From NCBI GenBank assembly GCA_000092065.1, contig CP000598.1: a DNA stretch of 64,000 nucleotides. One strand, written 5' to 3'. The stretch comes from Ostreococcus lucimarinus. Taxonomy: Eukaryota. The notes under the pieces were generated by a model. That model made no database searches. It worked only from the letters and a program-made list of their open reading frames with translations, and was not told where the DNA came from. The translations under genes were made by a program, and so were the position numbers. Shown one piece after another: positions 21,199 to 59,354 of the stretch (positions are counted from its first letter, which is position 1; the number at the start of each line of letters is the position of its first letter).

Positions 21199-21213
21199 CC
21201 TCCTTAGCTTTCT

Positions 21214-25212: not shown

Positions 25213-25215
25213 TCA

Positions 25216-26391: not shown

Positions 26392-26578
26392 CTTGCTTTG
26401 GTTAAGCGTTTTAAGGCGTTACTAAATTTAGAATCTTCTAAAAATAGAACGATTCGCTCTAAAAATAGAACGACTCTTTACAAACCGATCGAGGCGCAAA
26501 AGGCACTCTTCCGATTGACACTAATCGTAGGTCCACGCTAGCGTGCTGCACGTCGTCGCAGATGGCAGAATCGTACGA

Positions 26579-26753
26579 TGCGAGCTATACCTTATATGAT
26601 GGTGAGCAATCGGGCCTAGTGCGTCGATAAGTGATGATAATTACAATCAGTTGTGGTTAGTTCATTAATGAGTGTTAACTCGTCAATTAGTCCCGCTAGG
26701 TTACTAGGGGAAGCTACTATATTTCATATTTTACTCTTCAGATTTCTAACACA
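26579..26753 (-). repeat. copia 5' LTR
   Basis: Identical to 21024-21198. Confidence 0.8.
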
Positions 26754-28654: not shown

Positions 28655-29641
28655 TTTTTCGGTCGCGAAAGCGCGCGGTCGCCGGGTCAACCAACACCTT
28701 CATCTCCGGGGGGGATCGAAGATTGTTTTTTACGGTCGCGCGCGCGGTCGCCGCGGACGCCCCCGCCCTCGTCGACGCCGCGCTGACTGTCGCGCGCTGA
28801 CTGACGCGCGCTGACTGACGCGCGCGCGATCGAACGCCGCGAGTGGGGAAAGGCGAACGCGCGACGTCGTCGCGCGCGCCCCCGCGCGTCCCGGAGCGAA
28901 CCGCGCGTCGTCGTCGTCGCCGTCGCCGTCGCGCGCGTACGCTTCGGAACGCGAAAATCGTTTTTCGTCGCGGGGGGACTGCGGTGCGGGTCGTCTCACA
29001 CTTCGGGACGCCGACGATGGTGTCGTCCGGCGACGCCGACGTCGACGACGCGGTCGAACGACGCCATCGGCGCGGTCGCGGTCGCGCCGTTCACGATCTT
29101 CTGCCGTCGTCCTCGACGGCGCCAGCGCGCGCAGCGGCAGATCTCGCGGCGATTCAAAAAACCGATACGATCGACGATCGCGCCAACGCGAAACGCGCGC
29201 GAACAGCGACGGCGTCGCCCGACGAGAGTTCCCCTCCCATGATTTCGTTCGACGATATGTTCATCGATGCGCTCGACGGCTTCACGACGTACACCGAGGC
29301 GAAAACGAACACCGTCCCGCCGGTTGAAGCAGCAACCGGTCGAGGCGCGCTCCCGAGGCGGTTTTGCAAGAGCTGTCGGAAAGCGCTCGACGTGTTTCGT
29401 GATTTCGACGGGGAGCTGAAGACGTGTCGACTGTGTTTGCGCGTGCGCAAGAAGGACGCGAAACGCAAACGCGCGCTACGGCGGGCGGACGCGAAAAGGT
29501 CGGGCGACGGCGACGGTAAAAAAGGCGCGGCTTCGTAGAGAAGCTGAACGCAGGGAACGACGACGAGTCGCGGATGCGCGCGAAACGATCGATCTTTGAT
29601 TCGACGCGCCTTCGGTATAGTAGTGTGTTTTGCTCTGTAGC
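28655..29641. repeat. Segment duplicated at 58354-59158. The second copy carries a ~190-bp internal deletion. The segment includes GC-rich low-complexity sequence and a small C-x2-C...C-x2-C ORF.
   Basis: Aligned directly; the two copies are near-identical outside the deletion. Confidence 0.6.
29017..29538 (+). CDS. Hypothetical basic protein with a putative C4 zinc-binding motif (FCKSCRKAL...CRLCL). A duplicated copy is at 58717-59055.
   Basis: The first in-frame ATG is at 29017. The ORF is conserved in both copies, but the context is GC-rich, so the coding status is uncertain. Confidence 0.3.
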   Translation: MVSSGDADVDDAVERRHRRGRGRAVHDLLPSSSTAPARAAADLAAIQKTDTIDDRANAKRARTATASPDESSPPMISFDDMFIDALDGFTTYTEAKTNTVPPVEAATGRGALPRRFCKSCRKALDVFRDFDGELKTCRLCLRVRKKDAKRKRALRRADAKRSGDGDGKKGAAS

Positions 29642-32880: not shown

Positions 32881-33252
32881 ATGAAATCGGCGCGGACGTG
32901 ATTCGGATGCGGTGGCGTTACGTTCTGTTCCGATCCGCGTGCGCACGCACTTTTGTCACGTACTCACGCACATTTGTGTGGCATGTGATTACTCATGTGT
33001 GAAAAAAACGTTCCGAACCGTTCCGCACGGTTGTTCGAGGGTCGTCATCGGCGGAGAACGACGACAAAATTAAGGGGTATAAAGATTAGCGAATATGTAA
33101 ATGTAAGGAGTAACCATGGGCTCCAACGTTAATCGCCTCGAAATGCTTTCCGTTATCGATGACTTGCATGAAAAGTATCAACATTTACACCATAAATCGA
33201 AGCTCTAAACCCTAAACATAGTTTTCGTTTTTTTTGCTCAGGTTTCGCCAGG

Positions 33253-33366
33253 CACGTGTCAAAAATTGGCAAATTCTGAAACTCGTTTTTTGCTAGGGTT
33301 TAGCTTTAACGTCTCCGAACGCTCCGACGGGGAGGCGATGACGCCGCCGCCACTCGTCGACGCCTC
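33253..33366 (+). promoter_or_regulatory. Conserved upstream module (copy 1 of 4), containing ctagggtttagc and lying upstream of the giant DUF285 gene.
   Basis: It aligns with 46951-47065, 50010-50176 and 51756-51946. A CCCTAAA x2 interstitial telomere-like motif sits just upstream at 33196-33212. Confidence 0.4.
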
Positions 33367-33838
33367 CGTCCGCGGTCGTTCGCGTCGACATAGTTCAAGT
33401 GGTACCCTTGGACGACGGGCCCACCCGTGCGCACCCACGGGTGGGTGAAGTGCGTTTCCGTGGCGCGCCGTCGCCGTTCGGTCCTTCGCGGGCGACCGTA
33501 GCGCAACCGGGCGATCTCCGTGCGGGCGGCGCGACGCGACGCCGGTGCACGCATCGCAAGGGGCACACGCCGGGGGCACGGCGCCATTCGCGGCGAACGG
33601 TACGCCACCACACACGTTCGCAGCGGCGGACGGCATGCGTGGGCGGGTTGGAGGCAACGTTGTATTGAAAATTGCGTACAGCACTGTTGGGCAGACCGGC
33701 TCGTTGAAGCAGCATACGGATCTACGAGCGAAAGCATTTTCTCCGTCGAATATCATAGGGAAACAGCATGATAGATCAGTTGCACGGTCGAATCACAGTG
33801 CTCGAGCATCCTTCAGTTATCATACGTTGAAGGTGAAA

Positions 33839-36800
33839 ATGATTTTAACACTCGTATCCATCGCTATATCCATGGGAAATACACTTGCGAGTGGTAGCAT
33901 AGCGCTCACCGACGCAACGTTTTCTACTGCGATCGCTAGTTGCCTCGAGGAGGCAGCGTCGGATGGCCTGTGTACTTCTTACGGCTTTGCAAGTGGGTTC
34001 GGAGCGATGCCTGATTGGGACACGGGCAATGTCACGAACATGGGTAGTGCATTTTCGTCTAAATACTACTTCAATGCATCCATCGGGAACTGGAACACGT
34101 CGCGAGTGACGTATATGGGTTCCATGTTTCAGTCTGCGTATTCGTTTAATCAGGACATCGGGAACTGGAACACGTCGCAGGTGACGAACATGTATTCCAT
34201 GTTTCAGTCTGCGAATTCGTTTAATCAGGACATCGGGAACTGGAACACGGCGCGAGTGACGTATATGGGTTCCATGTTTCAGTATGCATCTTCGTTTGAT
34301 CAGGACATCGGGGGCTGGAACACGTCGCAGGTGACGAACATGTATTCCATGTTTCAGTATGCGTCTTCGTTTGATCAGGATATCGGGAACTGGAACACGT
34401 CGCGAGTGACGTATATGTATTCCATGTTTCAGGGCGCATCTGCGTTTGATCAGGACATCGGGGGCTGGAACACGTCGCGAGTGACCAATATGGGTTCCAT
34501 GTTTCAGTATGCATCTTCGTTTGATCAGGACATCACAAACTGGAACACGTCGCGAGTGACCAATATGGGTTCCATGTTTCAGTATGCATCTTCGTTTGAT
34601 CAGGACATCACAAACTGGAACACGGCGCGAGTAACGTACATGACCAACATTTTCCAAAACGCGACGGCGTTTCAGGCGAAATATACATGTTCGACCGTTC
34701 AATCTGGACCCATCGCATCGTGTTCGCAGTGCGTTGCAAACTGTGCCGCTTGTAGTAACACTGCGTCGGGTGTTTGTAGTGTTTGCATGACTGGGTACAC
34801 ATTAGACGGAGGAATGTGTGCGGCACCCGCTGCGGCGCTCACCGACGCAACGTTTTCTACTGCGATCGCTAGTTGCCTCGAGGAGGCAGCGTCGGATGGC
34901 CTGTGTACTTCTTACGGCTTTGCAAGTGGGTTCGGAGCGATGCCTGATTGGGACACGGGCAATGTCACGAACATGGGTAGTGCATTTTCGTCTAAATACT
35001 ACTTCAATGCATCCATCGGGAACTGGAACACGTCGCGAGTGACGTATATGGGTTCCATGTTTCAGTCTGCGTATTCGTTTAATCAGGACATCGGGAACTG
35101 GAACACGTCGCAGGTGACGAACATGTATTCCATGTTTCAGTCTGCGAATTCGTTTAATCAGGACATCGGGAACTGGAACACGGCGCGAGTGACGTATATG
35201 GGTTCCATGTTTCAGTATGCATCTTCGTTTGATCAGGACATCGGGGGCTGGAACACGTCGCAGGTGACGAACATGTATTCCATGTTTCAGTATGCGTCTT
35301 CGTTTGATCAGGATATCGGGAACTGGAACACGTCGCGAGTGACGTATATGTATTCCATGTTTCAGGGCGCATCTGCGTTTGATCAGGACATCGGGGGCTG
35401 GAACACGTCGCGAGTGACCAATATGGGTTCCATGTTTCAGTATGCATCTTCGTTTGATCAGGACATCACAAACTGGAACACGTCGCGAGTGACCAATATG
35501 GGTTCCATGTTTCAGTATGCATCTTCGTTTGATCAGGACATCACAAACTGGAACACGGCGCGAGTAACGTACATGACCAACATTTTCCAAAACGCGACGG
35601 CGTTTCAGGCGAAATATACATGTTCGACCGTTCAATCTGGACCCATCGCATCGTGTCGATCGGGGTCACCATTTCAGAATTCGACCGAGTTGAAGCTTGC
35701 GGTCGACAGCTGTTTACTCGCGGATCCAACAGGAAATTGTGATTGCAGAAGTTCTCTGGTCGACTGCCGGGCGGCGAGCGGCGATTCAATATCGAAATGG
35801 GATACACGCTTCGTAACGAATATGAGCTCCTTGTTTGCAGGATCAGATCAATTTAACGCAGATTTAGGTGCTTGGAACACAAGTGCCGTTACTTCGATGT
35901 CGCACATGTTTCATGGAGCCGCTGCGTTCAACAAAGACATTAGTGGTACGTATAATGCGAATATCTTCGCGTGGGACGTGAGCGGCGTGACGGACATGAC
36001 TCGAATGTTCGAAGGCGCTAATAGTTTCGCTCAGGACATCAGCTCGTGGAACGTGGTGAACGTCGCGAGCATGGACAGTATGTTTTCGGGCGCAAACGCG
36101 TTCAACGCGCCCATCGGCAGTTGGAACACAGACGGCGTGACAAACATGTTTCAGATGTTCCACTCAGCACATGTGTTCGATCAACCAATCGGAAGCTGGA
36201 ACACGGAACGGGTGACGAGCATGCAGTGCATGTTCATGTATGCGCGTGAATTCAATCAGGATATCAGCTCCTGGAACACGGTCAACGTGGTAAATATGTG
36301 GGATATGTTTAATAGTGCGGATGCGTTCAACCAGAACATTGGGTTATGGAACACAGAGGAGGTGACGGATATGAGATACATGTTCTATAACGCGGGTGCG
36401 TTCAACCAGCCCATAGGGTCGTGGAACACCGCCAATGTCACGACCATGCGATCTATGTTTCAGGGCGCATCTGCGTTTAATCAGGACATCGGAAACTGGA
36501 ACACGACTTCTGTCACGGACATGTACAGCATGTTTGGTAGCGCGACGGCGTTCAATCAGAACATCACGGGATGGCACACGCCGAATACTGGTATTACTTG
36601 CGATTCATCGCAAACGGCGTGTGGTGATACAGGGTGTTTTGACATCGGTAATTGTGCTGCTGCGATGTTTTCCGGTGCGACAGCTTGGTTAGCGAGGTAT
36701 GCTCGCATGGATGGGAATGCGTCGAGCACCGATGGACCTCCGTCTCAGTGGGTCGGCCCGACACCATTTTTGAGTCGAGACGCTTTAGTCGCGGCGGTTG

Positions 36801-39800
36801 ATAATTGCTTGACCGAGGACGAGACGGGAAGTTGCGATTGCTCTGATTACGACGTCGATTGTGGCGCCGCCGTAAAGCTGCCGATCACGGAATGGGACGT
36901 GAGCCTCATCGTGGATATGAACGAGCTATTTAAGGCTCGAGCAGCTTTCAATCAACCGGTTGGTGTTTGGAACACTAGTAGCGTGACGGATATGAGCGGC
37001 ATGTTTGAGAGCGCATCCGCGTTTAACCAGCCCGTTGGTAACTGGAACACGGGTAGTGTGACGGACATGAGCGGCATGTTTGAGAGCGCATCCGCGTTTA
37101 ACCAGCCCATTGGTAACTGGGCCACGGGCAGTGTGGCGGATATGAGCGGGATGTTTGAGAGCGCATCTGAATTCAATCAGAATATTAGTAGCTGGTCAGT
37201 CGCTTCTGTGGTGAACATGCAATCCATGTTTTCCTCTGCTTCATCCTTCGAGCAAGACATCACTGGATGGATTTCAACTAGTGTCACGACGGACATGGCG
37301 ACGGACATGTTTCTCTCTGCGACAGCTTGGCTGCGAACATTCGCACGCACAGATGGCGAAGACACCCCCCATGGTCCACCATCCGATTGGGGCGAACCGT
37401 GTGGCAATGGGTGGTACGATGAGAAAGTTCAGGGGGAGAAGGAGGATGACTTTTGTGAGCCAAAAGTGAACGGGATTGAAGTGAAAGGATGTGCAGATGA
37501 CTGCAAAGTAAAAACGAACTGGAAGTGCGACAATGTCGACTTGCTACGCCCCGGTGATGACTTCGACAGCTACAATTGTACGTGCGACAACCCGGTGGGC
37601 ACGTATGCATCACCTAATCTTGATAATGATTGTGCTCGCACAGATTGCGTTTATGTCGAACGGTGTCTCGCTAACGGCCTAGGCTGTGCGCCCGGTGCCG
37701 GTGGAATGTGGGACGTGGGACGTGGAACGTGGGACGCGGTGAACGCATGCGGCAAGTGCTTGAGGGCCGCTGATATTGCCGAGCTCCCACTCAACGAACG
37801 AAGTAGGCACAACAAGGCTGGCTATTACAAGACTGGGCAGACGTGCACGGCTTGTCCTGCGACATCAGCCGCGGGACTTTTCGCTGCGGCTGCGGTTGTC
37901 GTCGTCCTCGCTTTTTGTGGTTTCAAAGCCTCTCAATTGATGGGCGCTCAAGCGACGAACAATTTGAAGAAAATTGTCGAGTCGCTGCAGTTCTTCTCTC
38001 TTTCGCTCAGTATGAGTATCAAGTGGCCTGGGCCCGTACTCAATCTCGGTAAATATTTGGAAGCTTTCACGTTCAGCATTGAGTTTCTACGACCCCAATG
38101 CGTCGCTGCGGGGCTGGATTGGCTCAATATATTTTTGTCCTCGGTGTTTGTCGTTCCCGCTCTCATCTTCATAATCATCGTCGTGAACAATAGACGGGCG
38201 AGGCACCGTTACAAAACAACGGTGCGCGCGATCGACAGTGAACGACACGAGGATGGCGAAACGGTCTACTGGATCGAGAAACCAGGGTTCCTGTGGGGTA
38301 CGCGGAGAGCTTACGAGTCCAAGGGCGGAGATAAGATTGTTCGTGAGTTGCAGCGCCAGTATCGGTTTCGAGCCGCGCTTCGATCTTTCGGCGTACTGTC
38401 ACTGACCATCCTGTACCTTCCCATCGTGCGTATGTGCCTTCAGTCATACGATTGCATAAAGATAGACGGCGTGGATGGGCTTCGATTGGAGCATGACATA
38501 GATATCCTCTGTGAAAGCGAAGGGCACGTGATCATCCAGGCCGCCGCCGCGGTGATGTTGGCCATTGTCGGTATCGGCATGCCAATTTACGTCGTTATGC
38601 AAGTTCGTAAGATCCGTTTGAGTGGTAAACTGGATGATCCGCAGACTATCGACTCGTATGGTCCGTTCTACGACGTCTACCGGCGCGAGGAGCTCACACA
38701 TGATCACAAATTGGAGATTGCGAGGATTCGACAAACCGCGGTCGAGTCGTCCTCATTTCGACGAGGCGAAGGCACGAGCGACGAACGTCCTTTCGATGCA
38801 GCAACTGATGATATTGCAGAAGAAATCGCAAATGAAGTCAGGGTCGACACGGAAGAAGATTCAAGCGACGTCGATCGTGTTGACGTCGAGGACGATAGTG
38901 GCACTCCACCACCTCAGAAAGTTTCATCCGGTCTCGGTAAGCTCGCTCGGGCGTTAACGATGACGAAGTCTGCTTTAGGCCGGACGACGTCAGCGAAAGC
39001 GCGCGAACGGGCACATCGAATGCACTGGAAGGACAGGTTCGCGCTTCACTACCTGGCCGTTGAACTAGTGCAGAAGAGTTGCGTCATTTTGACGACGTCT
39101 CCGATAGTGGCCGAAACCGCGGTGAGCGGTTGGGCTCTGGTTGTCGTACACTGGTTTACCGGCGCCTTCGTCTACGTGTGTCAGCCTTGGCGCATCATGA
39201 CGCTCGGCTTCGGCAAATACAAGGTGCGAAATTGCTTGAACAAAGTCGAGTCCTTGGCTGGATTTTTGCAGGGCGTGGGACCGTTCTTGGCAATGATCTT
39301 CCCTGTTCAGAGAAACGAGTTCGGTGAGGTGAAGCAAACTGTGACACTCTCAGCCATAACTGTCCTGCTGACCATCATAATCACCGGGCTGCTTTCTATT
39401 CGTATCATTGTTTTCGTCGGCGAACGCGTCGCCGTCAAACGAAAGAAGATGGATATCGACAAGGATCCCGAGAAATGCATGCAAAATGTTCACAAACAAC
39501 TGGTCAAGCTCGCAACCAACAGAGCGATTGTGAGCATGTTTGCTTTCAAGGCAGATTTCGACATTAAGCGCCGTAAAGCACGCGCGAGGCTGGAAGATAC
39601 TCGCCAAGCGATGTTATCGCGCATCGATATCTTGAAGTCACAACAGACCGACGAGGACCATTCCGATAAAATTACCGCGTTGTACGAAGTGGCGAATGAA
39701 ATGGCACACATCGTGAATACGATCGTACCCCAAGCACCGCCAACAGGTCCAAACGCAGAAGGGTGTATCGAATTGCTGGATGAACAACTGGCATCAATTC

Positions 39801-41368
39801 TCAAGGACGTCGACGTCCGAGCGCAGGCGAACGCGTTAGACGCTCCGAATTCTGCGGCGGTACATATCGTGATGAAGGTCCACGCGTTCGATACAATCAT
39901 ATGTCGACTTGACGAACATTTGCTCGAATTCGCGGCGGCAGAACGTGTGAGTGAGCTCGCCGAGCTGGGTCGAAGACACGCTGAATTACGACATACGCGA
40001 CGTTGTGTCGCGATAGGTTTCGGCGACGCAGAGCTTCGAGCTACTTTCGATGCGCTAAGATCGTGCATCGAGGCACTCCGCCATGCCGTTGAGAACGACG
40101 ACTTCGAAGCTGTATTCACAACTTTCAATGGTGGGAAGGAGATCATTGATTCTCACTTACGATGGTGTCGGGATCAATGTGAATTGTTCAAGAGCGCCGA
40201 GGACGAGCACCCCGATTTCCTCGAGGACGAGCCTCCACTGACGACCGAGTTTTTCAAGGCGACAGTCAAGGTGATACAATCCCATGAAAAGCAACTGTCT
40301 AAATTTAAATCGGAATGTATTCGTAACTGGCCCCCGCTTTTCAAGAACTTTGGCCGCGTCAAGTACATACAAGGCTTTGCTGAGCAACTTCAGAATCAAC
40401 TCCATCTCGATCTCAATGAAAGCACGCCGGAGGAGGCCAAGGCTGTTTTCGATCAGGTGTTGGCCTTCACAGATGGCTTCGCGCTTTGGTGCGGCGATTT
40501 AGTGGCACAGGTCGAAGGCTCAGATGTCTTCATCTTGTTTGAGCCAATCGCCCGCGCGATGGTGGAAAGCTTGAAAGCCATCAGAGCAGACGCTGAGTCG
40601 CAAAGTGCACTCGCGAGGCAAGCATTGAGTACGATAGATTATGTGGTGACGCAACGGGCGTTGGCCGCAACGACGCGGTCGGGCTTGCAGACAGCACTCG
40701 CGGATGGTACGTCTGCGCTTGAAGACCAGCTCGCCGCAGAAATTGCAGACATGGACGCTGCGAAGATTTCTCGAGAGACTACTTTCGAGACCGAAAAGAT
40801 GCGCACCGAGGAAGCTTTGAATACATTAGAGCAAGAGTTGGACGGTAGGCGAGCGGTTTTAGAGGACGACATTCGATCGCAACAGGACACTATCGCGCGG
40901 CTACAAAACTTGAAACGGGAAGAGGCCGCGGCATCGAGCTCTATAAACCCGTTGAAATGGGAGCGTTTCAGTCGAAGCACTGAGCTCGCCGAAGCTGTAA
41001 GTGCACTCCGTATGAGCAAACAAAACTTGAAGAATGAAGAGCTTGCAAATGAGAAGGCCCGCGGGGATGCGCGTAAGGCGGTTCATTCGTTGGAACGGGG
41101 CCTGAAAAAGGACCTGGTCGAATGTGACGTCCGAGCAAAGAAAATCCGAGACGATGTGGCAAAGGAGCTGAAGAAACAAACTATGGATGCTCAGAGGAAG
41201 ACACCCGAAGATGCTAAAGCCCATAAGGCTAGTCTGGCTTCCAGGCGCGCGGTGTTCCAGCAACAACGCGCCGCCGCTAAACTCATCGCGAGCGAAAGTA
41301 GAGAAGCTACGCGAATTCAAGCACAGCTTGCATACTACATGCGAAATTTAAAGGCGCGCGAATCGTGA
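33839..41368 (+). CDS. Giant (about 2500 aa) type I transmembrane protein with the following layout:
- signal peptide ([19 protein letters not shown]);
- about 40 DUF285 (PF03382, 'Mycoplasma lipoprotein'-type, ~26 aa) repeats in four blocks;
- Cys-rich modules;
- a TM/multi-TM region;
- a long cytoplasmic coiled-coil domain that is shared with the gene at 51947-53832.
   Basis: The repeat unit is FQ(Y/S)[14 protein letters not shown](R/Q)VT(N/Y)M(G/Y)SMF. The hydrophobic stretch [17 protein letters not shown] is at about 37.87 kb. The first ATG in frame with a signal peptide is at 33839. Confidence 0.75.
33902..35767 (+). repeat. Perfect in-frame tandem duplication: two units of 933 bp (311 aa). 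Bases 33902-34723 are identical to 34835-35656, and each unit encodes 10 DUF285 repeats.
   Basis: Read directly. The antisense ORFs at 33845-34702 and 34802-35635 translate identically over 277 aa. Confidence 0.8.
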
Positions 41369-41702
41369 TATAACGGTCGACTACGAGGAATACACGCATA
41401 GTCGAAACATGAGCACCCTGTCGCAGAAGGAGCTGAGTTTCCGCTTCGTTACGGATGAGATTGTGCGAGAAGACATGCCACATTCAAATTCGGGGCGATG
41501 GCTCACAAATCAGGCAAGAGAAGACAGGTGCACGTGCAAACTCTCAGCGGAACGAGTTGGTCGTCTCGAAGATCTCGGTGTTTGGTGAGACCAAGCCGAC
41601 GCACAGGAGGAGCACTTCGATGCCTGGAGGTACAGAAGATGTAACTCATCTTAAGCGTACGACTATTCAGACCTTGGGGGTTCCGCTTAAGATTTCTTCG
41701 GA

Positions 41703-42020: not shown

Positions 42021-42227
42021 GTAAGAGTAATAAAAATAAACTTTTTTTTGTTTGAGTTGGGGCACCCCAACATGATAAAACCGCACATCGCGGCGAGCCG
42101 CGCGACGACGATCACTTCGGTCACATTTCCAGTCAGTGATTCTCGTCGTGTGATTCATCGTGTTTGACGTCGACGTTGATGTACCACATGTAAGATCTCT
42201 TCAGAACCAATCGTGTGAGTGAAGTGT

Positions 42228-46272: not shown

Positions 46273-46409
46273 CGTCGCGCGTTGAAATGCGGCGACGACA
46301 AGTGGCGACGGTGACGCGATCTGCCCGCACGCAATTCAATTCCTTCGGGTCACCTTATCTTTTGGAGCCCCCGGAAACGCGACTGTTTACCAATACGATG
46401 GTTCCCGGG

Positions 46410-46950
46410 TATTGATTACTGGGCCTGTTGGCGCCCCGCGGGTGTGTGTGTGCCAGCCCGTAGGGTTTAAGGTTTAGGATCCGAAATATGGAGCCTCGCT
46501 ATTAAGCCGGGGATCCTCCGCGGGCACGCGCCCCCGCGGGCGTGTGTGTTTTCGCGGTCGGTCGGACGGGAAGCCTGTTGGCGCCCCACGGGTTTGTGTG
46601 TCGGTCCTTAGCGTTTGGGGTTTAGTATCGGACATACGGAGCCTCACTATTTAGCGGTATGACCACATATATTAATTGATTTATACCATTCATCCCGCGC
46701 ATAAAATCGGGTAGATTACTGTACAGTAATCTACCCGACTTTATGCGCGGGATGAATGGCATAAATCCCATAGTATATGGGGACCGGACCGGCGGGACGT
46801 GTGATTTTTTACCGTAGGGGTCATGATTGGTCGTTCGGGGGTACTCGTATGAAATAATGAAACACCATACTTTTATTTACATTTTGGTTTATTAAAAAAA
46901 CCCGTACGTGCATTTACTACAGAATTGACCACTTTTCGCGCGGGTTTCAC
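46410..46950. repeat. Dispersed intergenic repeat with a related copy at ~49440-50040. It contains the perfect palindrome ttactgtacagtaa (28 bp in copy 1: cgggtagattactgtacagtaatctacccg) and gggtttag-type motifs.
   Basis: Aligned directly. The two copies are related but diverged. Confidence 0.4.
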
Positions 46951-47065
46951 CAGAAAGCTTCAAAAATCGTGCCTTTTCTAAAACTCAATTTTCGCTAGGG
47001 TTTAGCGCCCCCGGTTTTCCGAGGATGCGGGCAGATCTCGCCGTCGGCGCCACTCGTCGACGACC
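46951..47065 (+). promoter_or_regulatory. Conserved upstream module (copy 2 of 4), ending at the ATG of the gene at 47066.
   Basis: It reads ...ctagggtttagcgcccccggttttccgaggatgcgggcagatctcgccgtcggcgccactcgtcgacgacc|ATG. Confidence 0.45.
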
Positions 47066-48181
47066 ATGGCCTCCCCGTCGCTCGATGCCGTGCGTTGGAG
47101 CGAATACCGGGCGCTCATGCAAGCGTGGGAAGCGTTTAACCCACACAGGGAGCTCCTGCGTCGGTTTTTACAGAAGCAATCGCACACGGAGCAGTGCCCA
47201 CCCGGCGTCCCGTACGTACCAGATCTGCCGGAGCCGGAGTACTTCGCCGTGAAGAGACGAATCGAGGCCGGGGAAACCGTTCCATGTCCTGGATTCTTAC
47301 GCGAACGCGACAACCGGCGCAATCAATGCCGCTGCGGGGCTCCACTCAGAGTTGATGACACTGGCAATATCTCCTGCACTTCCAAAATTCCCCGTCATGA
47401 GAACTATGGTCCTGTACCTCGTTGCTGTTGCTGGGCCGAAGAAGAGCACGCTCGTAACCAACGACATGACATGCCGCCGTATATTTTAAGGCCGCCACCC
47501 ATAGTGTCCCCCCCTCAAGTACCACCGTCGTCTCAAGTGCTCTTGAGCTTTTTGGAGGGGGTCAGGCCAAGCATGAACGCCAACTACCTGCGATGCGTTC
47601 AAGACATAGACGAAGAGCTCGCTCGTCTGAATGAGCAGCTTGCGGACAACAGCATTTCAACGACGAGGCGTGAAGCGATTCAACAGCATATAGTGAGCGA
47701 ACGCTCCAAACTTGAGGCCAAAGACACACAGTTACAAGATTTTTTTAACACGACGACCGCACTGGCAGAATCCGTGCACACGTTCGAGCACAGAGTGGCA
47801 GAGAAATACCAGAAAGCTGTGGATGCATACATTAAAGCGCAACTGGATGAAGTGGTCGTACCTCCGGATAGTAGAGGGAATCCAAAGTTTAAGGACTCAG
47901 TCGATGGCATCGACAGAGAGTTGGCCAAGTTAGAATCAGAAAATGGAGGCATCTCCAACGACAGCGCTCGCGCTCGCGTCGCCTCCAAACGTAAGAGCGT
48001 GGAAGAGTGTGAATCAGAGCACAAGCGCCTCAAAACCACTTCGGTTGAGTACAACTTGTCTATTTTGAAAGGGAGTTTGGAAAAAGACAAATCTATGTCT
48101 GCTGAAGACAAAAGACGCTGGGAATGCGTCATAAACGCCGTCGGGTTGTTACGAGCAAACGATGCACCAAGAACGCCGTAG
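47066..48181 (+). CDS. Hypothetical coiled-coil protein, family member A (371 aa).
   Basis: The ATG was verified. It is paralogous to the gene at 50177-51220 (YLRCVQDIDEELARLNEQLADNSISTTRREAIQQHI versus YLRTVERIDKNIQVLEAQLQDENISETRRSVIPQHI). Confidence 0.55.
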   Translation: MASPSLDAVRWSEYRALMQAWEAFNPHRELLRRFLQKQSHTEQCPPGVPYVPDLPEPEYFAVKRRIEAGETVPCPGFLRERDNRRNQCRCGAPLRVDDTGNISCTSKIPRHENYGPVPRCCCWAEEEHARNQRHDMPPYILRPPPIVSPPQVPPSSQVLLSFLEGVRPSMNANYLRCVQDIDEELARLNEQLADNSISTTRREAIQQHIVSERSKLEAKDTQLQDFFNTTTALAESVHTFEHRVAEKYQKAVDAYIKAQLDEVVVPPDSRGNPKFKDSVDGIDRELAKLESENGGISNDSARARVASKRKSVEECESEHKRLKTTSVEYNLSILKGSLEKDKSMSAEDKRRWECVINAVGLLRANDAPRTP

Positions 48182-49407: not shown

Positions 49408-50009
49408 CTTTGGCGTGGGTTTATCTCGCAAAAGGATTTCAGCGAGGCTTGAGGTGCGCCGCAAAGTGAGGCCCGGAGATCCGGGGATCCTCCGCAGCCC
49501 CGCGGGCGTGTGCCTGGCGTGTGCCCTTCGCGGTCGGTCGGACGAGGGGCCCGTTGGCGCCCCGCGGGTTTGTGTGCCAGCCCCAGGGTTTAGGGGTTAG
49601 GATCGGACATATGGAACCTCACTAATTAGCCGCATGACCTCATACATTAAGTTATTTATATCTAGTCATCGCGCGAAATGGCGTGGGTAAATTACCGTAC
49701 TAGGGTTTCCGTAAATAAAATACGTACCGAAAATAATGAATTAATTTACACGGGCGTGCCACGACGTCGTCGCACGCGCTCGTGAAAATTTGGTTGACGG
49801 CTTGGATTCGAGATTTTGGGGAGGTAAAATTCGGCCAAATCCCGCGCATATATTACTGTACAGTAATCAAAGCGCGGGATGTGGCCAAAGTCTTTGGGTC
49901 ACAGCCCCTCACTTTGGGGGCTGCAGTGACGGGATGTGGGAATTTTACCGTATGGGTCGTGACTCGTCGTTGGGGGTACTACTATGAAATCCCATAATTC
50001 TATTGTACA

Positions 50010-50176
50010 TAGGGTTTAGAAATTAGGGTTTAGACGTCAAAAATCGCTCGGGTTCCATCAGAAACGTGTCAAAAACGGGCCTTTTCTGAAACTCGATTTT
50101 TGCTAGGGTTTAGCGCCCCCGGTTTTCCGAGGATGCGGGCAGAGCTCGCCGTCGGAGCCACTCGTCGCCGCACACG
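50010..50176 (+). promoter_or_regulatory. Conserved upstream module (copy 3 of 4), including tagggtttagaaattagggtttagac.
   Basis: It aligns with the other three copies and ends at the ATG at 50177. Confidence 0.45.
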
Positions 50177-51220
50177 ATGACCGATTCAGTCGCGCACGCC
50201 TCACCGACATGGAGAACGTACTCATTAAACCCGTCGCTGCAACCGGACTGGATGAACGGCACGGCGGAGGTAGAGGCGGTCAAAACAGCGGAGGATGATC
50301 TCGAGCGCTCGTACAAGAACAAGCCGTTCTTCAAGGACGCAAGCTACGAGGCATTCGCCAGACAACGAGACGAGTATGACAAACCGACGCCCGACGGCCT
50401 CGAGGAGTTCAAGCGCATCTTACGGTCGAATTATCTTCGCACCGTAGAGCGCATCGATAAAAATATCCAAGTTCTGGAAGCCCAGCTACAAGACGAGAAT
50501 ATCTCTGAAACGCGACGGTCGGTTATCCCGCAGCACATCGAGGACACTCGTGCGAAATTAAAAGAGCAAGACAATTCATTGAACGCGCTGTGCGCCGATG
50601 TGGATGCGGTTATCGCAGATTTGAAAGGCTTGCCCGATAAAATTGCCGACATTAAAGAGCGCGCCTCTGAACAACTTCAGCGACACAAAAGAAAAAGGAC
50701 TAATGCATCTTTGGAACGCAACCTCGAGGAGTTGAGCGATGCGTTGCGCAGCTACGAGGCGAAAAAAGAACAGGAGAGGCTCACCCTTTGTGAACACCAA
50801 ATTCGCCAACAGAATCTGCCATTGTCCCAGTATGTTCGCTACTCAGGGGGAGGAGTTATCGACGTTGTTCATCCTGTGGGTGTCATCGGCTGCGATGGTA
50901 GTAACCTCAGCGTTGATGGTCGTGGTGGTCGTGGTGGTCGTGGTGGTCGTGGTGGTCGTGGTGATCGTGTTCTTTCGGTTAATCGTCAACGTTACTTTGA
51001 AGTGCCACAATGGCGGCCTGAATGGGGACCTGAGAAGCAATTTTGTGCGTGCAAGAGCTTCCAAGAATGGTACAAAGTCGACGCCGGAGACCTTCTTTAC
51101 AGCGCGCTTCGTGGCGTAGAGGGCGCGCTAAAGGCGCTCAGTGGTTCGGGAGATGACACCTCTTCGCTTCGACGGCGCTTGGGCGATGCCAATTTGGACG
51201 AGGCAAGCACAGGGAGTTAA
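50177..51220 (+). CDS. Hypothetical coiled-coil protein, family member B (347 aa), with a (RGG)5 tract encoded by a (ggtcgtggt)n microsatellite.
   Basis: The ATG was verified. It is paralogous to the gene at 47066. Confidence 0.55.
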   Translation: MTDSVAHASPTWRTYSLNPSLQPDWMNGTAEVEAVKTAEDDLERSYKNKPFFKDASYEAFARQRDEYDKPTPDGLEEFKRILRSNYLRTVERIDKNIQVLEAQLQDENISETRRSVIPQHIEDTRAKLKEQDNSLNALCADVDAVIADLKGLPDKIADIKERASEQLQRHKRKRTNASLERNLEELSDALRSYEAKKEQERLTLCEHQIRQQNLPLSQYVRYSGGGVIDVVHPVGVIGCDGSNLSVDGRGGRGGRGGRGGRGDRVLSVNRQRYFEVPQWRPEWGPEKQFCACKSFQEWYKVDAGDLLYSALRGVEGALKALSGSGDDTSSLRRRLGDANLDEASTGS

Positions 51221-51946: not shown

Positions 51947-53832
51947 ATGGCAAAGGTGAAGATAATGCTAATATTGTCGATGGTGTTGATACTGCGCATG
52001 CCGAGCGCACTCGCAGGCGCACTCACACACGCACTCCTCCGTGTGGGTGGTCCACGTGTAAGGCAAGCTGTCGAAAAAGGGATGAAACAAGGCATTATGG
52101 ATTCGTTTCCAGGAGGCGTCCAGGACCTCCTCGCATACTTGCACCGCCACAGAGAGGACGAAATCAAACAGGAGTTTGGGTGCATGGCGCTCATGATCAT
52201 GTGCCGGGAAAACACTGAGAACAGACGCATCGCCGGAGAGCAGGGCGCGATCCAGGCCGTCGTGAACGCCTTGAACCGCCACAGAGAGAACAAGGAAGTG
52301 CAGAGGGACGGACACATGGCGCTCGTGATCATGTGCGAGGACAACACCGAGAACAGACGCATCGCCGGAGAGCAGGGCGCGATCCAGGCCGTCGTGGACG
52401 CCTTGAACCGCCACAGAGGGAACAGGGAAGTGCAGAGGGACGGACAACTGGCGCTCGCGATCATGTGCAAGGACAACACTGAGAACAGACGCATCGCCGG
52501 AGAGCAGGGCGCGATCCAGACCGTCGTGGACGCCTTGAACCGCCACAGAGGGAACAGGGAAGTGCAGAGGGACGGACAACTGGCGCTCGCGATCATGTGC
52601 AAGGACAACACTGAGAACAGACGCATCGCCGGAGAGCAGGGCGCGATCCAGACCGTCGTGGACGCCTTGAACCGCCACAGAGGGAACAAGGAAGTCCAGG
52701 CGAACGGGCACATGGCGCTCGCGAGCATGTGCATTAACAACACTGAGAACAGACGCATCGTAGACGCGTATGGGCAAACAGTTAGTTATTCTCCACAGCC
52801 TCCATTCGCGCGACCAGAGCGTTGAAGGACAGCGGGCGCAGTGATGATGCGCAAATAAACGCACTGTACGCGATTGCAAACGAGATGGCGCACGCTGTGA
52901 ACATGATCTCGATTCAAGGTGTCGCTGAAGGCCCGGGCGTTGAAGAACGAGTAAAACACACACAAGATTTCCTACAGCAACTTTTGTCGGACGTCGACAT
53001 CAAACTTGAGATCGAAGAAAAGCAAAACGCCGAGGCTCTGCGTGTGGTATTGCGAGTGCACGCGTATGGTCGTGCCATGAAAATTATCGAGGATCACATG
53101 CTAGAATATGCGCGCGCTGAACAAGTGGAGGAGCTGGCCGTGCTCGGACAAGAATCTGCGGCACTGTTAGAAGAACAAAACCTCCTTTCCATGGGTTTTG
53201 GCGTCAAGGAGCTGAATATGTCGATACTGGCAATCGACGCGGAGCATTTCACTGTGCACCTAGAGAAAGCTACTTCCCTGGACGAAGTCGGCAGTGCTGT
53301 GGCCATTCTCAACGCCGTCAATTCCATTGCAGTCCGTCATCTCGAGTGGAGAGATGCGAGCGTTGCAACTTTTAGCCACCTTGAAACCGAAGAGTCCATT
53401 GGTATTGAAGTCAAAATCAACAGGGACGTACTATATTCTGCTGCGATGCTTCTGAAAGATCACGAATCCCAGCTGAACCAAGAACTGGCGAGGCGCGCGC
53501 GCGAATGGAAGCTTCTGTTTAAGAATTTTGGAAAAGTGAAATTCAACCAGACGCTTGAAGAAATGGTTCAGGTGGAGCTCACCTCGCCTGAAGGCGCGGA
53601 CGCTGATTTAACACGCCGTGCTAAAAAATTTGTGGATTGGTGCGTGGAATCTTCACAGCAGCTGAGCCGAGGGGAGTTTAACCAGCGTCTTCCTGGGATT
53701 ACGGAAACGGCATATATCAGCCTAAAATCCCTCGCACAGAAGTCTGCCAGTTCGCTCGTTAAGATCGCACAAAAAACAGCTGCATCGAGGCGTAGCAAAA
53801 CAAAGACGTCAATATTCGGGTTTGCGCGCTAA
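51947..53832 (+). CDS. Armadillo-repeat protein (five or six 42-aa ARM units, three near-identical) joined to a C-terminal domain homologous to the cytoplasmic tail of the giant DUF285 protein. The two reading frames are broken near 52768-52825, either by a 50-nt intron (52768-52817, GT..AG) or by a frameshift.
   Basis: The ARM units read ENRRIAGEQGAIQAVVDALNRHRGNREVQRDGQLALAIMCKDNT. The downstream ORF has NALYAIANEMAHAV...LRVHAYG, matching [15 protein letters not shown]...MKVHAFD in the giant protein. Confidence 0.45.
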
Positions 53833-58220: not shown

Positions 58221-59354
58221 CGTCGCGCGTTGAAATGCGGCGACGACAAGTGGCGACGGTGACGCGATCTGCCCGCACGCAATTCAATTCCTTCGGGTCA
58301 CCTTATCTTTTGGAGCCCCGGAGATGCGACTGTTTACCAATACGATGGTTCCCTTTTTTCGGTCGCGAAAGCGCGCGGTCGCCGGGTCAACCAACACCTT
58401 CATCTCCGGGGGGGATCGGAGATTGTTTTTTACGGTCGCGCGCGCGGTCGCCGCGGACGCCCCCGCCCTCGTCGACGCCGCGCTGACTGTCGCGCGCTGA
58501 CTGACACGCGCTGACCGACGCGCGCGCGATCGAACGCCGCGAGTGGGGAAAGGCGAACGCGCGACGTCGTCGCGCGCGCCCCCGCGCGTCCCGGACCGAA
58601 CCGCGCGTCGTCGTCGTCGCCGTCGCCGTCGCGCGCGTACGCTTCGGACCGCGAAAATCGTTTTTCGTCGCGGGGGGACTGCGGTGCGGGTCGTCTCACA
58701 CTTCGGGACGCCGACGATGGTGTCGTCCGGCGACGCCGACGTCGACGACGCGGTCGAACGACGCCATCGGCGCGGTCGCGGTCGCGCCGTTCGCGATCTT
58801 CTGCCGTCGTCCTCGGCGGCGCGCGCGAACACCGTCCCGCCGTTTGAAGCAACCGGTCGAGGCGCGCTCCCGAGGTGGTTTTGCAAGAGCTGTCGGAAAG
58901 CGCTCGACGTGTTTCGTGATTTCGACGGGGAGCTGAAGACGTGTCGACTGTGTTTGCGCGCGCGCAAGAAAGACGCGAAACGCAAACGCGCGCTACGGCG
59001 GGCGGACGCGAAAAGGTCGGGCGACGGCGACGGTAAAAAAGGCGCGGCTTCGTAGAGAAGCCGAACGCAGGGAACGACGACGAGTCGCGGATGCGCGCGA
59101 AACGATCGATCTTTGATTCGACACGCCTTCGGTATAGTAGTGTGTTTTGCTCTGTAGCCTCGCGTGTTGTAACTACCGTTGTACATTTACATCAATGCGT
59201 CGTCGCGTTCGCGGCGATTTTACGTCGTCGTTCGTTCGCGACGCTTCGTTGGACATGGCGCTTCGACACAGAAGAATCCGACGCGCGCACAGTCCGTGGT
59301 GTCGCGCGCACGTCATCGCACACGTCTCATTTCTTATTTCTCCGCTCCAACTCG

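What the first reader, a model, noticed from the sequence alone, without database searches (positions are those of the whole stretch)
33196..33366. Upstream module with telomere-like TTTAGGG motifs shared by four otherwise different genes
An aligned ~115-190-bp upstream block appears at 33253-33366, 46951-47065, 50010-50176 and 51756-51946. It reads ...gtgtcaaaaacg.gccttttctgaaactcgatttttgctagggtttagcg....cgggcaga.ctcgccgtcg.cgccactcgtcgacg. It lies just upstream of the start codons of the giant DUF285 gene, the two coiled-coil family genes and the armadillo gene. It contains ctagggtttag, and in two copies tagggtttagaaattagggtttagac; CCCTAAA x2 sits at 33196-33212. The module could be a family-specific promoter or 5'UTR, or a subtelomere-associated sequence tying these genes to a subtelomeric variable gene family.
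Basis: seen in the sequence. Interest (0 to 1): 0.7.

Follow-up and report, generated by a model that had tools for sequence, protein, structure and literature searches.

The report
Portable upstream module of Ostreococcus cassettes
A conserved non-coding block with a telomere-like motif sits in sense orientation just upstream of dozens of unrelated genes in wild relatives of the tiny marine alga Ostreococcus lucimarinus, most likely as a shared promoter and leader, and differences between strains begin and end inside it.

Summary
The window is part of the 149-kb small outlier chromosome (SOC, chr18) of Ostreococcus lucimarinus CCE9901. Four + strand copies of a mosaic upstream module lie at 33236-33366, 46938-47065, 49923-50176 and 51756-51946 (nhmmer E 1e-15 to 6e-18).

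An exact-pattern scan of marine metagenomes found 97 further stretches. These gave 81 non-redundant copies, mostly on low-GC, SOC-like DNA. The copies sit head-to-tail between short genes (44 same-strand against 4 opposite-strand neighbour pairs). The core ends a median 88 nt before the ATG of 34 BLAST-unrelated ORF families.

I found no transposon hallmarks, no Rfam match and no RNA covariation. There are no telomere arrays in the window.

At two loci on standard chromosomes, alleles with and without module-flanked genes diverge inside module sequence.

Best reading: a portable promoter plus 5' leader, carrying telo-box-like and ACGT/G-box-like motifs, which also serves as the recombination junction for shuffling gene cassettes. 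Promoter activity is inferred, not shown. I found no published description. The closest analogues are plant telo-box promoters and the upstream repeats of parasite variant-gene cassettes.

The parts
33196..33214 (-). Telomere-like motif (ctCTAAACCCTAAAc, read as TAGGGTTTAG on the - strand), about 40 nt upstream of module copy 1
   Evidence: exact TAGGGTTTAG at 33205-33214 on the - strand
33236..33366 (+). Module copy 1: 5' block, core 33256-33304 and a divergent leader ending ...GCCGCCACTCGTCGACG. It lies upstream of the DUF285 giant ORF.
   Evidence: D14; E 1.5e-15
33545..41368 (+). Cargo gene 1: 2607-codon ORF with 13 DUF285 stretches. Its start codon is uncertain.
46283..46347 (-). Leader-only copy (blocks d-e, GGAATTGCGTGCGGGCAGATCGCGTC..GTCGCCACTTGTCG), directly upstream of the 841-aa ORF 43747-46272 and without a core
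   Evidence: (E 1.7e-12)
46780..46855 (+). Upstream block Z of copy 2 (gggaccggaccggcgggacgtg..ggtactcgtatgaaat), shared with copy 3 and many metagenomic long-form copies
   Evidence: 89.6% identical to the L089 reference block
46938..47065 (+). Module copy 2: core 46959-47007, short-form hairpin block, and a leader ending 4 nt before ATG 47066
   Evidence: D14, D17; E 1.7e-16
47066..48181 (+). Cargo gene 2: 371-aa coiled-coil orphan (ABP00612). The identical protein is also found in a standard-chromosome context (L001).
49923..50176 (+). Module copy 3, long form: block Z 49923-49990, telomere-like doublet 50010-50035, GTCAAAAATCG block, core 50066-50115, and a leader running up to ATG 50177
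   Evidence: D11, D14, D17; E 6.2e-18
50177..51220 (+). Cargo gene 3: 347-aa coiled-coil orphan, only 34% identical to gene 2 over 89 aa
51756..51946 (+). Module copy 4: telomere-like doublet 51759-51784, core 51816-51864, long-form hairpin block, and a leader running up to ATG 51947
   Evidence: E 3.2e-16; E 8.8e-24
51947..52825 (+). Cargo gene 4: 292-aa armadillo-repeat protein with a hydrophobic N-terminus
58231..58286 (-). Second leader-only copy, upstream of the duplicated 841-aa ORF (55689-58220)
   Evidence: (E 9.9e-13)

Best explanation
The module is a portable, non-coding promoter-plus-leader unit of the low-GC 'outlier' DNA of Ostreococcus lucimarinus.

Its blocks run 5' to 3' as follows:
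- an optional distal block Z;
- an optional doublet TAGGGTTTAGAAATTAGGGTTTAG;
- one to three ACGTGTC(A)5 units, which are G-box-like;
- the 45-50-nt core AAAAACGKGSCTTTTCTRAAACTCGATTTTTGCTAGGGTTTAGCG, whose last part is a telo-box (AAACCCTA) on the opposite strand;
- a short hairpin-forming block;
- a leader GCGGGCAGATCGCGTCGTCGGCGCCACTYGTCG, which usually stops 6-13 nt before the start codon.

Shown:
- The module sits in sense orientation immediately 5' of many unrelated genes.
- It forms head-to-tail module-gene arrays.
- It is far better conserved than the genes it precedes.
- Alleles at two standard-chromosome loci diverge inside module sequence.

Inferred:
- DNA-binding factors read it (telomere-repeat-binding Myb-type and bZIP/bHLH-type). 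It sets the transcription start and 5'UTR for its cargo, giving a heterogeneous gene set one common control.
- Because the same sequence recurs between every pair of cassettes, it is the homology or microhomology tract at which cassettes are duplicated, deleted, swapped and transplanted between the SOC and islands on standard chromosomes. Gene conversion among copies keeps it uniform.
For: Organism and location:
- Window proteins are exact matches to CCE9901 proteins on a 149,386-bp contig.

Spread:
- 97 metagenomic stretches match a 21-base-specified pattern and none match in viral contigs.
- These give 81 non-redundant copies.
- A core profile finds 152 copies in 695 kb of fetched DNA.

Link to gene starts:
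- 85 of 116 copies are followed by an ORF of at least 80 aa, median 88 nt from the core, in 34 unrelated families.
- 14 of 22 copies against 22% of random positions, p = 3e-5, with the divergent side at background.
- The leader ends 6-13 nt before the ATG in about half.
- The leader motif is not a general feature of ORF starts on the loci taken as standard-chromosome DNA (4 of 89; 3.6% in random windows).

Arrays:
- 44 same-strand against 4 opposite-strand adjacent pairs, spaced 0.15-13.7 kb and mostly 0.4-2.5 kb.

Conservation beyond the cargo:
- Modules 2 and 3 are 90% identical, while their proteins share 34% identity over 89 aa.

Motifs:
- CTAGGGTTTAG is present in 66 of 76 copies and ACGTG/CACGT in 42 of 76.
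- LHC-like cargo genes carry three tandem GACACGTGTCAAAAACGTG units.

Junctions:
- The identical cc1 gene is inserted between TatD and bestrophin on a standard chromosome. One end lies in the A-run of one core and the other at CTAGGG of the next core. The empty site is seen in 8 other contigs.
- Ten alleles downstream of cyclophilin D are 95-99% identical up to an ACGTGT...AAAA module-like block, then carry different genes. Three of them (L118, L125, L018/L024) carry module-led cassettes.

DNA-level rather than RNA-level constraint:
- No Rfam hit.
- Hairpin covariation is not above shuffles (53/500) and fold z-scores run from -0.4 to +0.8.
Against: - No transcript data were available, so the promoter, transcription start and 5'UTR roles are inferred from position only.
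- About a quarter of copies have no ORF of at least 80 aa within 450 nt. Most of these run off a contig end. Some (L038, L079, L062, L050) do not and may lie in intron-rich DNA or be relics.
- A more divergent lineage keeps the cc1 homologue with block Z, CTAGGGCTCAG and the leader but no core. The core is therefore dispensable for that gene.
- At least eight unrelated contexts share a sharp 5' limit at the A-run, and one insertion has a 5-bp duplication. Both would also fit an active mobile element.
- Metagenomic contigs often break at the module, so copy contexts are biased and partly redundant.
- I could not scan the full CCE9901 genome, so restriction to outlier chromosomes rests on GC content: median 0.527 for module loci against about 0.62 for the standard-chromosome loci L106-L113.
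Confidence: 0.55

Rival explanations
1. The module is a short non-autonomous transposable element (MITE, SINE-like or solo-LTR-like), or the terminal part of a larger mobile unit. It inserts upstream of genes and happens to carry an outward-reading promoter.
For: - It has many dispersed copies.
- At least eight unrelated contexts share a sharp 5' limit at N|AAAAACG.
- The long form has a second sharp limit about 170-176 nt upstream.
- One polymorphic insertion is flanked by a duplicated TAGAA.
- Copies sit mostly in low-GC outlier-type DNA. Papers on O. tauri describe transposable elements as abundant on the outlier chromosomes.
- Foldback palindromes lie just upstream of two copies.
Against: - There are no terminal inverted repeats or LTR-like TG...CA ends and no poly(A). 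No transposase was found next to copies, although not every neighbouring ORF was scanned. The adjacent 841-aa ORF is a membrane-anchored orphan whose relative lies among housekeeping genes.
- Orientation relative to the next gene and to neighbouring modules is strongly fixed. Random insertion would not give that.
- The 3' limit is not sharp and runs up to the ATG.
- The insertion in L001 carries a whole gene between two non-identical partial cores. Its 5-bp duplication shrinks to 2-3 nt once junctional microhomology is allowed for.
- At the cyclophilin locus the events are replacements without a duplication.
Confidence: 0.2
2. The module is a subtelomeric or interstitial-telomere repeat. The genes behind it belong to subtelomeric variable families, and the telomere-like motif marks old chromosome ends or fusion points.
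For: - TAGGGTTTAG equals 10 nt of the TTTAGGG telomere repeat and is 14-fold over-represented.
- Doublets and degenerate telomere-like runs accompany some copies.
- In L061, 3.5 CCCTAAA units abut the core at CCCT|TTCT. That is the form expected if telomerase had healed a break ending in ...AAGGG.
- Papers report SOC terminal deletions and fusions in sister species.
Against: - The window has no run of two or more perfect units, and its four copies are at least 12 kb from the window ends.
- The cyclophilin hot spot lies about 127-137 kb inside 581-582-kb contigs.
- The L061 run is internal to its contig.
- The motif has a fixed place and orientation inside a longer conserved block that points at an ATG. 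That is a property of a cis-element, not of decayed telomere arrays.
Confidence: 0.1
3. The module has no function of its own. It is leftover flanking sequence copied along with genes by repeated segmental duplication and kept similar by gene conversion.
For: - The region is full of recent duplications: a 4.2-kb pair at 98.8% identity and others.
- Copies are mosaic, with frequent small deletions.
- No covariation or other direct sign of function could be shown.
Against: - Duplication with the gene cannot place one block in front of 34 unrelated ORF families.
- The core is nearly invariant across about 80 copies, while the flanks and coding sequences are not alignable.
- The fixed 60-115-nt distance to the ATG and the strict sense orientation imply selection on the arrangement.
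Confidence: 0.1
4. The conserved part acts as RNA. It would be a structured 5'UTR element, the hairpin CTCCG-N9-CGGAG plus leader, controlling translation or stability of the cargo mRNAs.
For: - The hairpin block and leader lie between the core and the ATG, so they are probably transcribed.
- 87.9% of hairpin cells can pair, and the slid controls are lower at 40-65%.
- The leader-only form precedes the 841-aa genes without the core.
Against: - Covariation is not above shuffles (53/500), and only 2 cells show changes on both sides.
- Whole-leader folds are no more stable than shuffles (z from -0.4 to +0.8).
- The hairpin is deleted in several otherwise intact copies (TTTAG|GCGGAGG forms).
- There is no Rfam match.
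Confidence: 0.05

Closest known systems
Plant telo-box (AAACCCTA) promoter element
   Same: The same 8-mer is embedded at a fixed place close to the gene start, in a green-lineage organism whose telomere repeat is TTTAGGG. Plant telo-boxes sit preferentially from -60 to +140 of the transcription start (PMC2576244). The module's copy lies about 60-190 nt before the ATG in a genome described as having very short intergenic distances.
   Different: - Plant telo-boxes are isolated short motifs in about 10% of promoters, enriched at conserved single-copy, housekeeping-like genes.
- Here the motif is one part of a 110-300-bp block that is itself repeated nearly verbatim.
- The cargo is mostly orphan, repeat-rich or surface-type genes.
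- The coding strand carries TAGGGTTT, not AAACCCTA.
- No binding factor or transcription start is known here.
70-bp repeats upstream of Trypanosoma brucei VSG genes, and the conserved recombination junction element of Pneumocystis MSG genes (from my own knowledge, not tested here)
   Same: A conserved non-coding block lies 5' of each member of a large set of divergent genes and marks the upstream boundary of the segment that is copied or moved. The setting is a small, hypervariable chromosome. In sister species that chromosome has been linked to virus resistance, a host-parasite arms race.
   Different: - The Ostreococcus cargo genes are unrelated families, not one antigen family.
- The module also looks like the promoter and leader itself, whereas VSG and MSG cassettes are silent and promoterless.
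- There is no evidence for a single expression site or for telomeric location.
- The exchange mechanism is unknown.
Conserved upstream (ups) promoter classes of Plasmodium var genes (from my own knowledge)
   Same: Shared 5' flanking and promoter sequences are kept similar among otherwise diverse genes and are tied to recombination among them.
   Different: The ups classes are kilobase-scale, correlate with subtelomeric or central position, and serve one gene family under mutually exclusive expression. None of that is shown here.
Bacterial integron gene cassettes, and 'mobile promoters' of prokaryotes (from my own knowledge)
   Same: Head-to-tail arrays of short single-gene units are separated by a repeated recombination-prone element. 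The same unit is found in different genomic contexts.
   Different: - No integrase and no attC-type imperfect palindrome are present.
- Each unit here appears to bring its own promoter rather than relying on one array promoter.
- The host is a eukaryotic nucleus.

Membership tests
Plant-type telo-box cis-element | Presence of the motif AAACCCTA(A/G) | tested here: met
   CTAGGGTTTAG, which is CTAAACCCTAG on the other strand, is present in all 4 window copies and in 66 of 76 non-redundant copies.
Plant-type telo-box cis-element | Preferential position around the transcription start (about -60 to +140) | not testable with these tools
   No transcript ends are available. Only the distance to the ATG is known: a median 88 nt from the end of the core.
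Plant-type telo-box cis-element | Association with housekeeping or translation-related genes | tested here: not met
   The cargo is DUF285, ARM, ankyrin, FG-GAP/BNR, Tectonin/discoidin, Asp protease, LHC-like proteins and many orphans.
Subtelomeric repeat or interstitial telomeric array | Tandem perfect telomere units | tested here: not met
   The window has no run of two or more perfect TTTAGGG units. Among 126 loci, only L061 and L089 have one.
Subtelomeric repeat or interstitial telomeric array | Location within a few kb of chromosome ends | tested here: inconclusive
   - Window copies are at least 12 kb from the window ends.
- The cyclophilin hot spot is about 127-137 kb inside 581-582-kb contigs.
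- The position of the window within chr18 could not be obtained, because the NCBI record is not in the look-up index.
DNA transposon or MITE | Terminal inverted repeats and a constant target-site duplication | tested here: not met
   - The module has no terminal inverted repeats.
- One insertion has a TAGAA duplication of up to 5 bp.
- The second locus shows replacements without a duplication.
LTR retrotransposon or solo LTR | TG...CA ends, identical direct repeats flanking an internal region, and a 4-6-bp duplication | tested here: not met
   - The two partial cores flanking cc1 in L001 differ at about 8 of 39 positions and are only about 39 nt long.
- The ends are AATCG... and ...CTAGGG.
- The true Copia element in the window (21024-26757) has 176-bp identical LTRs and is unrelated.
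Helitron | 5' TC, 3' CTRR preceded by a hairpin, insertion between A and T, no duplication | tested here: not met
   The CTAG in the core is followed by GGGT, not by a host T. No GC-rich hairpin precedes it. The insert starts with AATCG.
Known structured RNA families (Rfam 15) | Match to a covariance model | tested here: not met
   No match up to E = 1 on 49800-52100, both strands.
Recombination-junction repeats of variant-gene cassettes (VSG 70-bp repeat, MSG CRJE type) | A conserved block 5' of each cassette gene | tested here: met
   81 non-redundant copies lie in front of 34 ORF families, in head-to-tail arrays.
Recombination-junction repeats of variant-gene cassettes (VSG 70-bp repeat, MSG CRJE type) | Boundaries of copied or moved segments fall in the block | tested here: met
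   - L001 against its empty sites: both ends lie in successive cores.
- Cyclophilin locus: ten alleles diverge inside a module-like 5' block, and the right junction of L018 falls at TTCTAGAAC of a core.
- Only two loci were examined.
Recombination-junction repeats of variant-gene cassettes (VSG 70-bp repeat, MSG CRJE type) | Silent archive copies activated by transfer to a single expression site | not testable with these tools
   No expression data are available.
Integron | An integrase gene and attC-type recombination sites | tested here: not met
   No recombinase domain was found in the window ORFs scanned. The module is not an imperfect palindrome.

The most novel reading that the evidence does not exclude
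Ostreococcus has a eukaryotic gene-cassette system. Each cassette is a short gene led by the same promoter-and-leader module. A dedicated break or recombination activity acts at two points in the module, the A-run and the TTCTRAAAC...CTAGGG core. That activity moves cassettes between the small outlier chromosome and a few 'landing' hot spots on standard chromosomes. A telomere-repeat-binding factor switches the whole set on or off together. This would supply both the diversity and the coordinated expression switch seen in virus-resistant lines of sister species.
Probability: 0.15. Interest if true: 0.9.

Novelty: new variant of a known kind. Interest (0 to 1): 0.66.

Why it matters
The small outlier chromosome of Mamiellales algae is hypervariable. 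Published work on sister species links it to resistance against prasinoviruses. That work describes massive rearrangements, translocations to and from standard chromosomes, and a block-wise transcription switch. It names no sequence element that mediates either.

A single conserved module that precedes the cargo genes and also marks rearrangement boundaries gives a concrete, testable handle on both questions:
- mutate or transplant it in a reporter;
- look for its binding factor;
- ask whether module-bearing genes are the ones switched in resistant lines;
- ask whether breakpoints in long-read population assemblies fall in it.

It is also a practical marker for finding outlier-type cassettes in metagenomes, and a candidate portable promoter for Ostreococcus engineering.

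Tried and rejected
- **Structured RNA.** No Rfam hit. Hairpin covariation is not above shuffles. Fold energies are not below shuffles.
- **The 841-aa ORF of the adjacent 4.2-kb duplication as a transposase or recombinase acting on the module.** It has no Pfam or PDB match and is restricted to Ostreococcus-like sequences. It has a hydrophobic N-terminal anchor. Its 49%-identical relative sits among housekeeping genes with no module nearby.
- **Viral origin.** No match in 2.9 million viral contigs.
- **The leader motif GCCACTY as a general Ostreococcus start-site motif.** It is not enriched upstream of ORFs on the loci taken as standard-chromosome DNA.
- **Locating the window within chr18 and reading the rest of the CCE9901 genome.** The look-up index did not return the NCBI record. 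I worked round this through cluster ids.
- **Finding a transcription start from a Logan contig.** L127 has no poly(A) and is a core-less allele, so it was uninformative.
- **Cargo as uniformly secreted or membrane proteins.** Only 12 of 64 have a hydrophobic N-terminus.
- **A 2607-aa gene next to cyclophilin in L124.** I suspected it was the window's DUF285 gene, but it shows no DNA similarity to the window.
- **Literature.** Five full-text searches and seven papers opened (one via a search) gave no description of this module.
Full report
**What the window is.** Several window ORFs are exact matches to predicted proteins of Ostreococcus lucimarinus CCE9901 (ABP00608, ABP00612, ABP00637, ABP00650). 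All lie on a contig of 149,386 bp. That is the published size of chromosome 18, the small outlier chromosome (SOC; Table 2 of PMC3491373).

The gene content fits a SOC:
- sugar epimerases and dehydratases, a mannosyltransferase, a nucleotide-sugar transporter and a methyltransferase;
- a Copia-type retrotransposon;
- a giant DUF285 protein and many orphans.

GC is about 0.50-0.57 in the region of interest.

**The observation.** The four blocks exist where stated and align over 115-190 nt.
- A profile of the 51-nt core finds exactly four copies in 64 kb, all on the + strand, with E from 1.5e-15 to 6.2e-18. The next hit has E 0.39.
- TAGGGTTTAG with up to 1 mismatch occurs 14 times against 0.99 expected.

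Three corrections apply:
- 33196-33212 holds about 1.7 telomere units with a mismatch, not two perfect ones.
- The DUF285 ORF does not start right after its module. An ATG present in a metagenomic allele reads ATA in the window.
- The repeated unit is larger than described. Copies 2 and 3 share another block about 100-170 nt upstream (46780-46855 and 49923-49990). The leader part alone also precedes both copies of an 841-aa ORF on the - strand (46283-46347 and 58231-58286).

**Anatomy.** About 80 non-redundant copies give this 5'-to-3' order:
- block Z, GGGACYGGACCGGCGGGACGTG...GGTACTCGTATGAAA, with a sharp 5' limit about 170-176 nt before the core;
- an optional doublet TAGGGTTTAGAAATTAGGGTTTAGAC;
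- one or more ACGTGTC-A5 units. The LHC-like cargo genes carry three tandem GACACGTGTCAAAAACGTG units, each a 10-bp palindrome around an ACGT core;
- the nearly invariant core AAAAACGKGSCTTTTCTRAAACTCGATTTTTGCTAGGGTTTAGCG;
- a hairpin-forming block, CTCCGGTTTTCCGRCGGAGGAATTGCG or a 10-nt-shorter form;
- the leader GCGGGCAGATCGCGTCGTCGGCGCCACTYGTCG.

The leader ends 6-13 nt before the ATG in about half of the copies measured. CTAGGGTTTAG is present in 66 of 76 copies and ACGTG/CACGT within 45 nt upstream in 42 of 76.

**Spread and association with genes.** An exact-pattern scan of marine metagenomes returned 97 stretches. The same scan of viral contigs returned none.
- Of 116 copies, including those found via the cc1 look-up and the window's own, 85 are followed by a same-strand ATG-ORF of at least 80 aa. 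The median distance from the core is 88 nt. Most of the rest run off the contig.
- The downstream ORFs fall into 34 families with no BLAST relationship.
- In a strict test on non-redundant copies with at least 650 nt on both sides, 14 of 22 have an ORF of at least 100 aa starting 30-200 nt downstream. The rate at random positions in the same loci is 22% (p = 3e-5). The divergent side is at background, 7 of 22.
- A core profile finds 152 copies in 695 kb of fetched DNA. Neighbouring copies are on the same strand in 44 of 48 cases, mostly 0.4-2.5 kb apart. The typical arrangement is therefore a head-to-tail array of module-gene units.

The cargo is heterogeneous:
- DUF285, armadillo and ankyrin repeat proteins;
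- FG-GAP/BNR repeats and a 2136-aa Tectonin/discoidin protein;
- TAXi-type aspartyl protease, rhomboid-TPR, DnaJ-ferredoxin and an LHC-like protein;
- coiled-coil orphans and many ORFs without any Pfam match.

Only 12 of 64 have a hydrophobic N-terminus.

Module-bearing loci have a median GC of 0.527, like the SOC. The standard-chromosome loci L106-L113 are about 0.62. One 22-kb low-GC contig has few long ORFs and may instead be big-outlier-chromosome DNA. That is inference only.

**Conservation is at the DNA level and exceeds that of the cargo.**
- Modules 2 and 3 are 90% identical over 125 nt. The proteins they precede share only 34% identity over 89 residues. Most cargo families are unrelated.
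- There is no Rfam match.
- The hairpin can pair in 87.9% of cells, but covariation is not above column shuffles (53 of 500). Leader folds are no more stable than shuffled sequence.
- The leader motif is not a general feature upstream of ORFs on the loci taken as standard-chromosome DNA (4 of 89 against 3.6% in random windows).

**The module marks the boundaries of structural differences between strains.** Two loci show this.

1. TatD-bestrophin locus.
   - The 371-aa protein of 47066-48181 is encoded, with 100% identity, on a 64-kb metagenomic contig between a TatD nuclease gene and a bestrophin gene (L001).
   - Those neighbours occur on contigs up to 466 kb with 62% GC, so this is a standard chromosome.
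   - Eight other contigs show the same two genes about 122 nt apart without the insert.
   - The empty site reads gtgtattcTAGAAccatcagcc.
   - The filled site reads gtgtattcTAGAA|aatcgtgcc...core 1...gene...3' tail...core 2...ttgctaggg|TAGAAccatc.
   - Both ends of the 1.35-kb insert therefore lie inside successive cores, one in the A-run and one at CTAGGG. They are flanked by up to 5 duplicated bases, of which 1-3 can be explained as junctional microhomology.
   - A third context for the same gene (L003) has a complete second module behind it.

2. Cyclophilin D locus.
   - The locus lies about 127-137 kb inside 581-582-kb contigs. Ten alleles are 95-99% identical up to ...gattaataggacgtg(ttat), a sequence resembling the ACGTGTC-A5 unit. 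They then carry different DNA.
   - The alleles carry: a hydrolase gene; a module plus a 297-aa ORF plus an Asp protease; a module plus a 389-aa coiled-coil ORF plus a second module; or quite different genes.
   - In L018 the right junction falls at TTCTAGAAC of a core, 40 nt before the hydrolase ATG. In L125 the same cassette is followed by a complete second module and a different junction.
   - These are replacements, not simple insertions.

A cc1 homologue of 79-80% identity from another lineage sits in a low-GC island of a 61%-GC contig. It has block Z, CTAGGGCTCAG and the leader but no core. Block composition therefore differs between lineages.

**What it is not.**
- It has no terminal inverted repeats, LTR-type ends or poly(A), and no neighbouring transposase was found.
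- Its orientation relative to genes and to other copies is fixed. Random insertion would not give that.
- It is not a telomere or subtelomere array. The window has no run of two perfect units, and the only run found next to a core (L061) is interstitial. That junction, CCCT|TTCT, does have the form expected of telomerase healing at a break ending in ...AAGGG. I record it as a lead only.

**Most likely mechanism.** Shown: the position, orientation, array structure, excess conservation and breakpoint coincidence described above. Inferred: the module supplies promoter elements (telo-box, ACGT/G-box-like units), the transcription start and the whole 5'UTR to whatever ORF lies behind it. Also inferred: its recurrence between cassettes makes it the tract at which unequal exchange, deletion, gene conversion and microhomology-mediated transplantation occur, and this also keeps the copies alike.

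The many copies that begin exactly at the A-run, and the two-ended precision of the L001 insert, leave room for a more specific break or recombination activity or for a mobile element. I give the transposon rival 0.2.

**Comparison with what is known.**
- The motif and its placement resemble plant telo-box promoters (PMC2576244). The gene class and the verbatim repetition of a 110-300-bp block do not.
- Functionally the closest analogues are the conserved upstream repeats that bound variant-gene cassettes in parasites: VSG 70-bp repeats, the Pneumocystis MSG junction element and var ups regions. These comparisons rest on my own knowledge. The differences here are that the cargo is many unrelated families, the module appears to be the promoter itself, and no single expression site is known.
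- Papers on the SOC of O. tauri and O. mediterraneus describe rearrangement of small repeats, translocations to and from standard chromosomes, and a shared regulatory switch. In five full-text searches and the seven papers opened I found no description of this element. The library is not exhaustive.

**Verdict.** The feature is real, widespread and non-random.
- 'Family-specific' is wrong.
- 'Subtelomeric' is not supported.
- The added finding is that the module is portable and coincides with cassette boundaries.
- I rate it a new variant of a known kind, with interest 0.66.

Noticed in passing
window 21024-26757: A Copia-type LTR retrotransposon on the - strand. It has a 1310-aa ORF with RVT_2 and integrase core domains, plus a 392-aa ORF. 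Its 176-bp LTRs (21024-21199 and 26579-26754) are 100% identical, which suggests a very recent insertion.
   Followed up: partly
window 42191-46406 and 54125-58353: A 4.2-kb segmental duplication at 98.8% identity. It carries an 841-aa ORF and two smaller ORFs on the - strand. The 841-aa protein is an Ostreococcus-only orphan with an N-terminal hydrophobic anchor and many invariant Cys, Trp and Asp residues. A 49%-identical relative lies among housekeeping genes on a 401-kb contig.
   Followed up: partly
window 28654-29641 and 58354-59158: Another duplicated segment, about 0.8-1 kb at 97-98% identity. Its second copy starts immediately after the second copy of the 4.2-kb duplication, so the two duplications are joined there.
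   Followed up: no
window 46663-46782 and 49830-49889: Spacer-less palindromes: 60-nt arms at 88% complementarity, and 30-nt arms at 83%. Each lies just upstream of block Z of module copies 2 and 3. They look like foldback elements.
   Followed up: no
window 46421-46699 and 49481-49675: A shared 200-280-nt repeat upstream of copies 2 and 3. It contains degenerate telomere-like strings (tagggtttaaggtttagg, cagggtttaggggttagg) and GC-rich palindromes.
   Followed up: no
window 48187-48244 and 52768-52825; also L054 and L060: A conserved 58-nt 'tail block' lies downstream of the cc1 gene and at the 3' end of the armadillo ORF. Read on the - strand it encodes ...VNALVARMEA(M/V)ENA followed by a stop. 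It looks like the C-terminus of a coiled-coil gene family that converges on the cassettes. In some contigs it directly follows a module core.
   Followed up: partly
window 41537-42020, 48376-48703 and 53949-54112: A repeat of about 330-480 nt in three copies (78-93% identical). Two of them directly precede the two copies of the 4.2-kb duplication.
   Followed up: no
window 52053-52844: The armadillo gene contains five to six tandem 132-nt (44-aa) units that are up to 95% identical, so the repeats expanded recently.
   Followed up: no
window 33390; L015 (reverse strand): The ATG that opens a 336-aa ORF 93 nt after the core in the metagenomic allele L015 reads ATA in the window. The two sequences also differ by a 5-nt indel further on. 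The true start of the DUF285 gene in CCE9901 is therefore unclear. A signal-peptide-like ATGATTTTAACACTCGTATCC lies further downstream.
   Followed up: partly
L116-L125, from position 5845 onward: A structural-variation hot spot on a standard chromosome, immediately 3' of the cyclophilin D gene. Ten metagenomic alleles carry at least five different gene contents over more than 5 kb.
   Followed up: partly
L061 70-104: An interstitial run of 3.5 CCCTAAA units is joined to a module core at CCCT|TTCTAAAAC. This is the form expected if telomerase had once extended a break ending in ...AGAAAAGGG on the other strand.
   Followed up: no
L103 against L104 and L105, from about 12.7 kb onward (window about 14.3 kb onward): The left, glycosylation-gene part of the SOC is conserved between strains up to the nucleotide-sugar transporter. 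Beyond it, one allele has GT90 and GT_PLOD glycosyltransferases where the others and the window have a methyltransferase.
   Followed up: no
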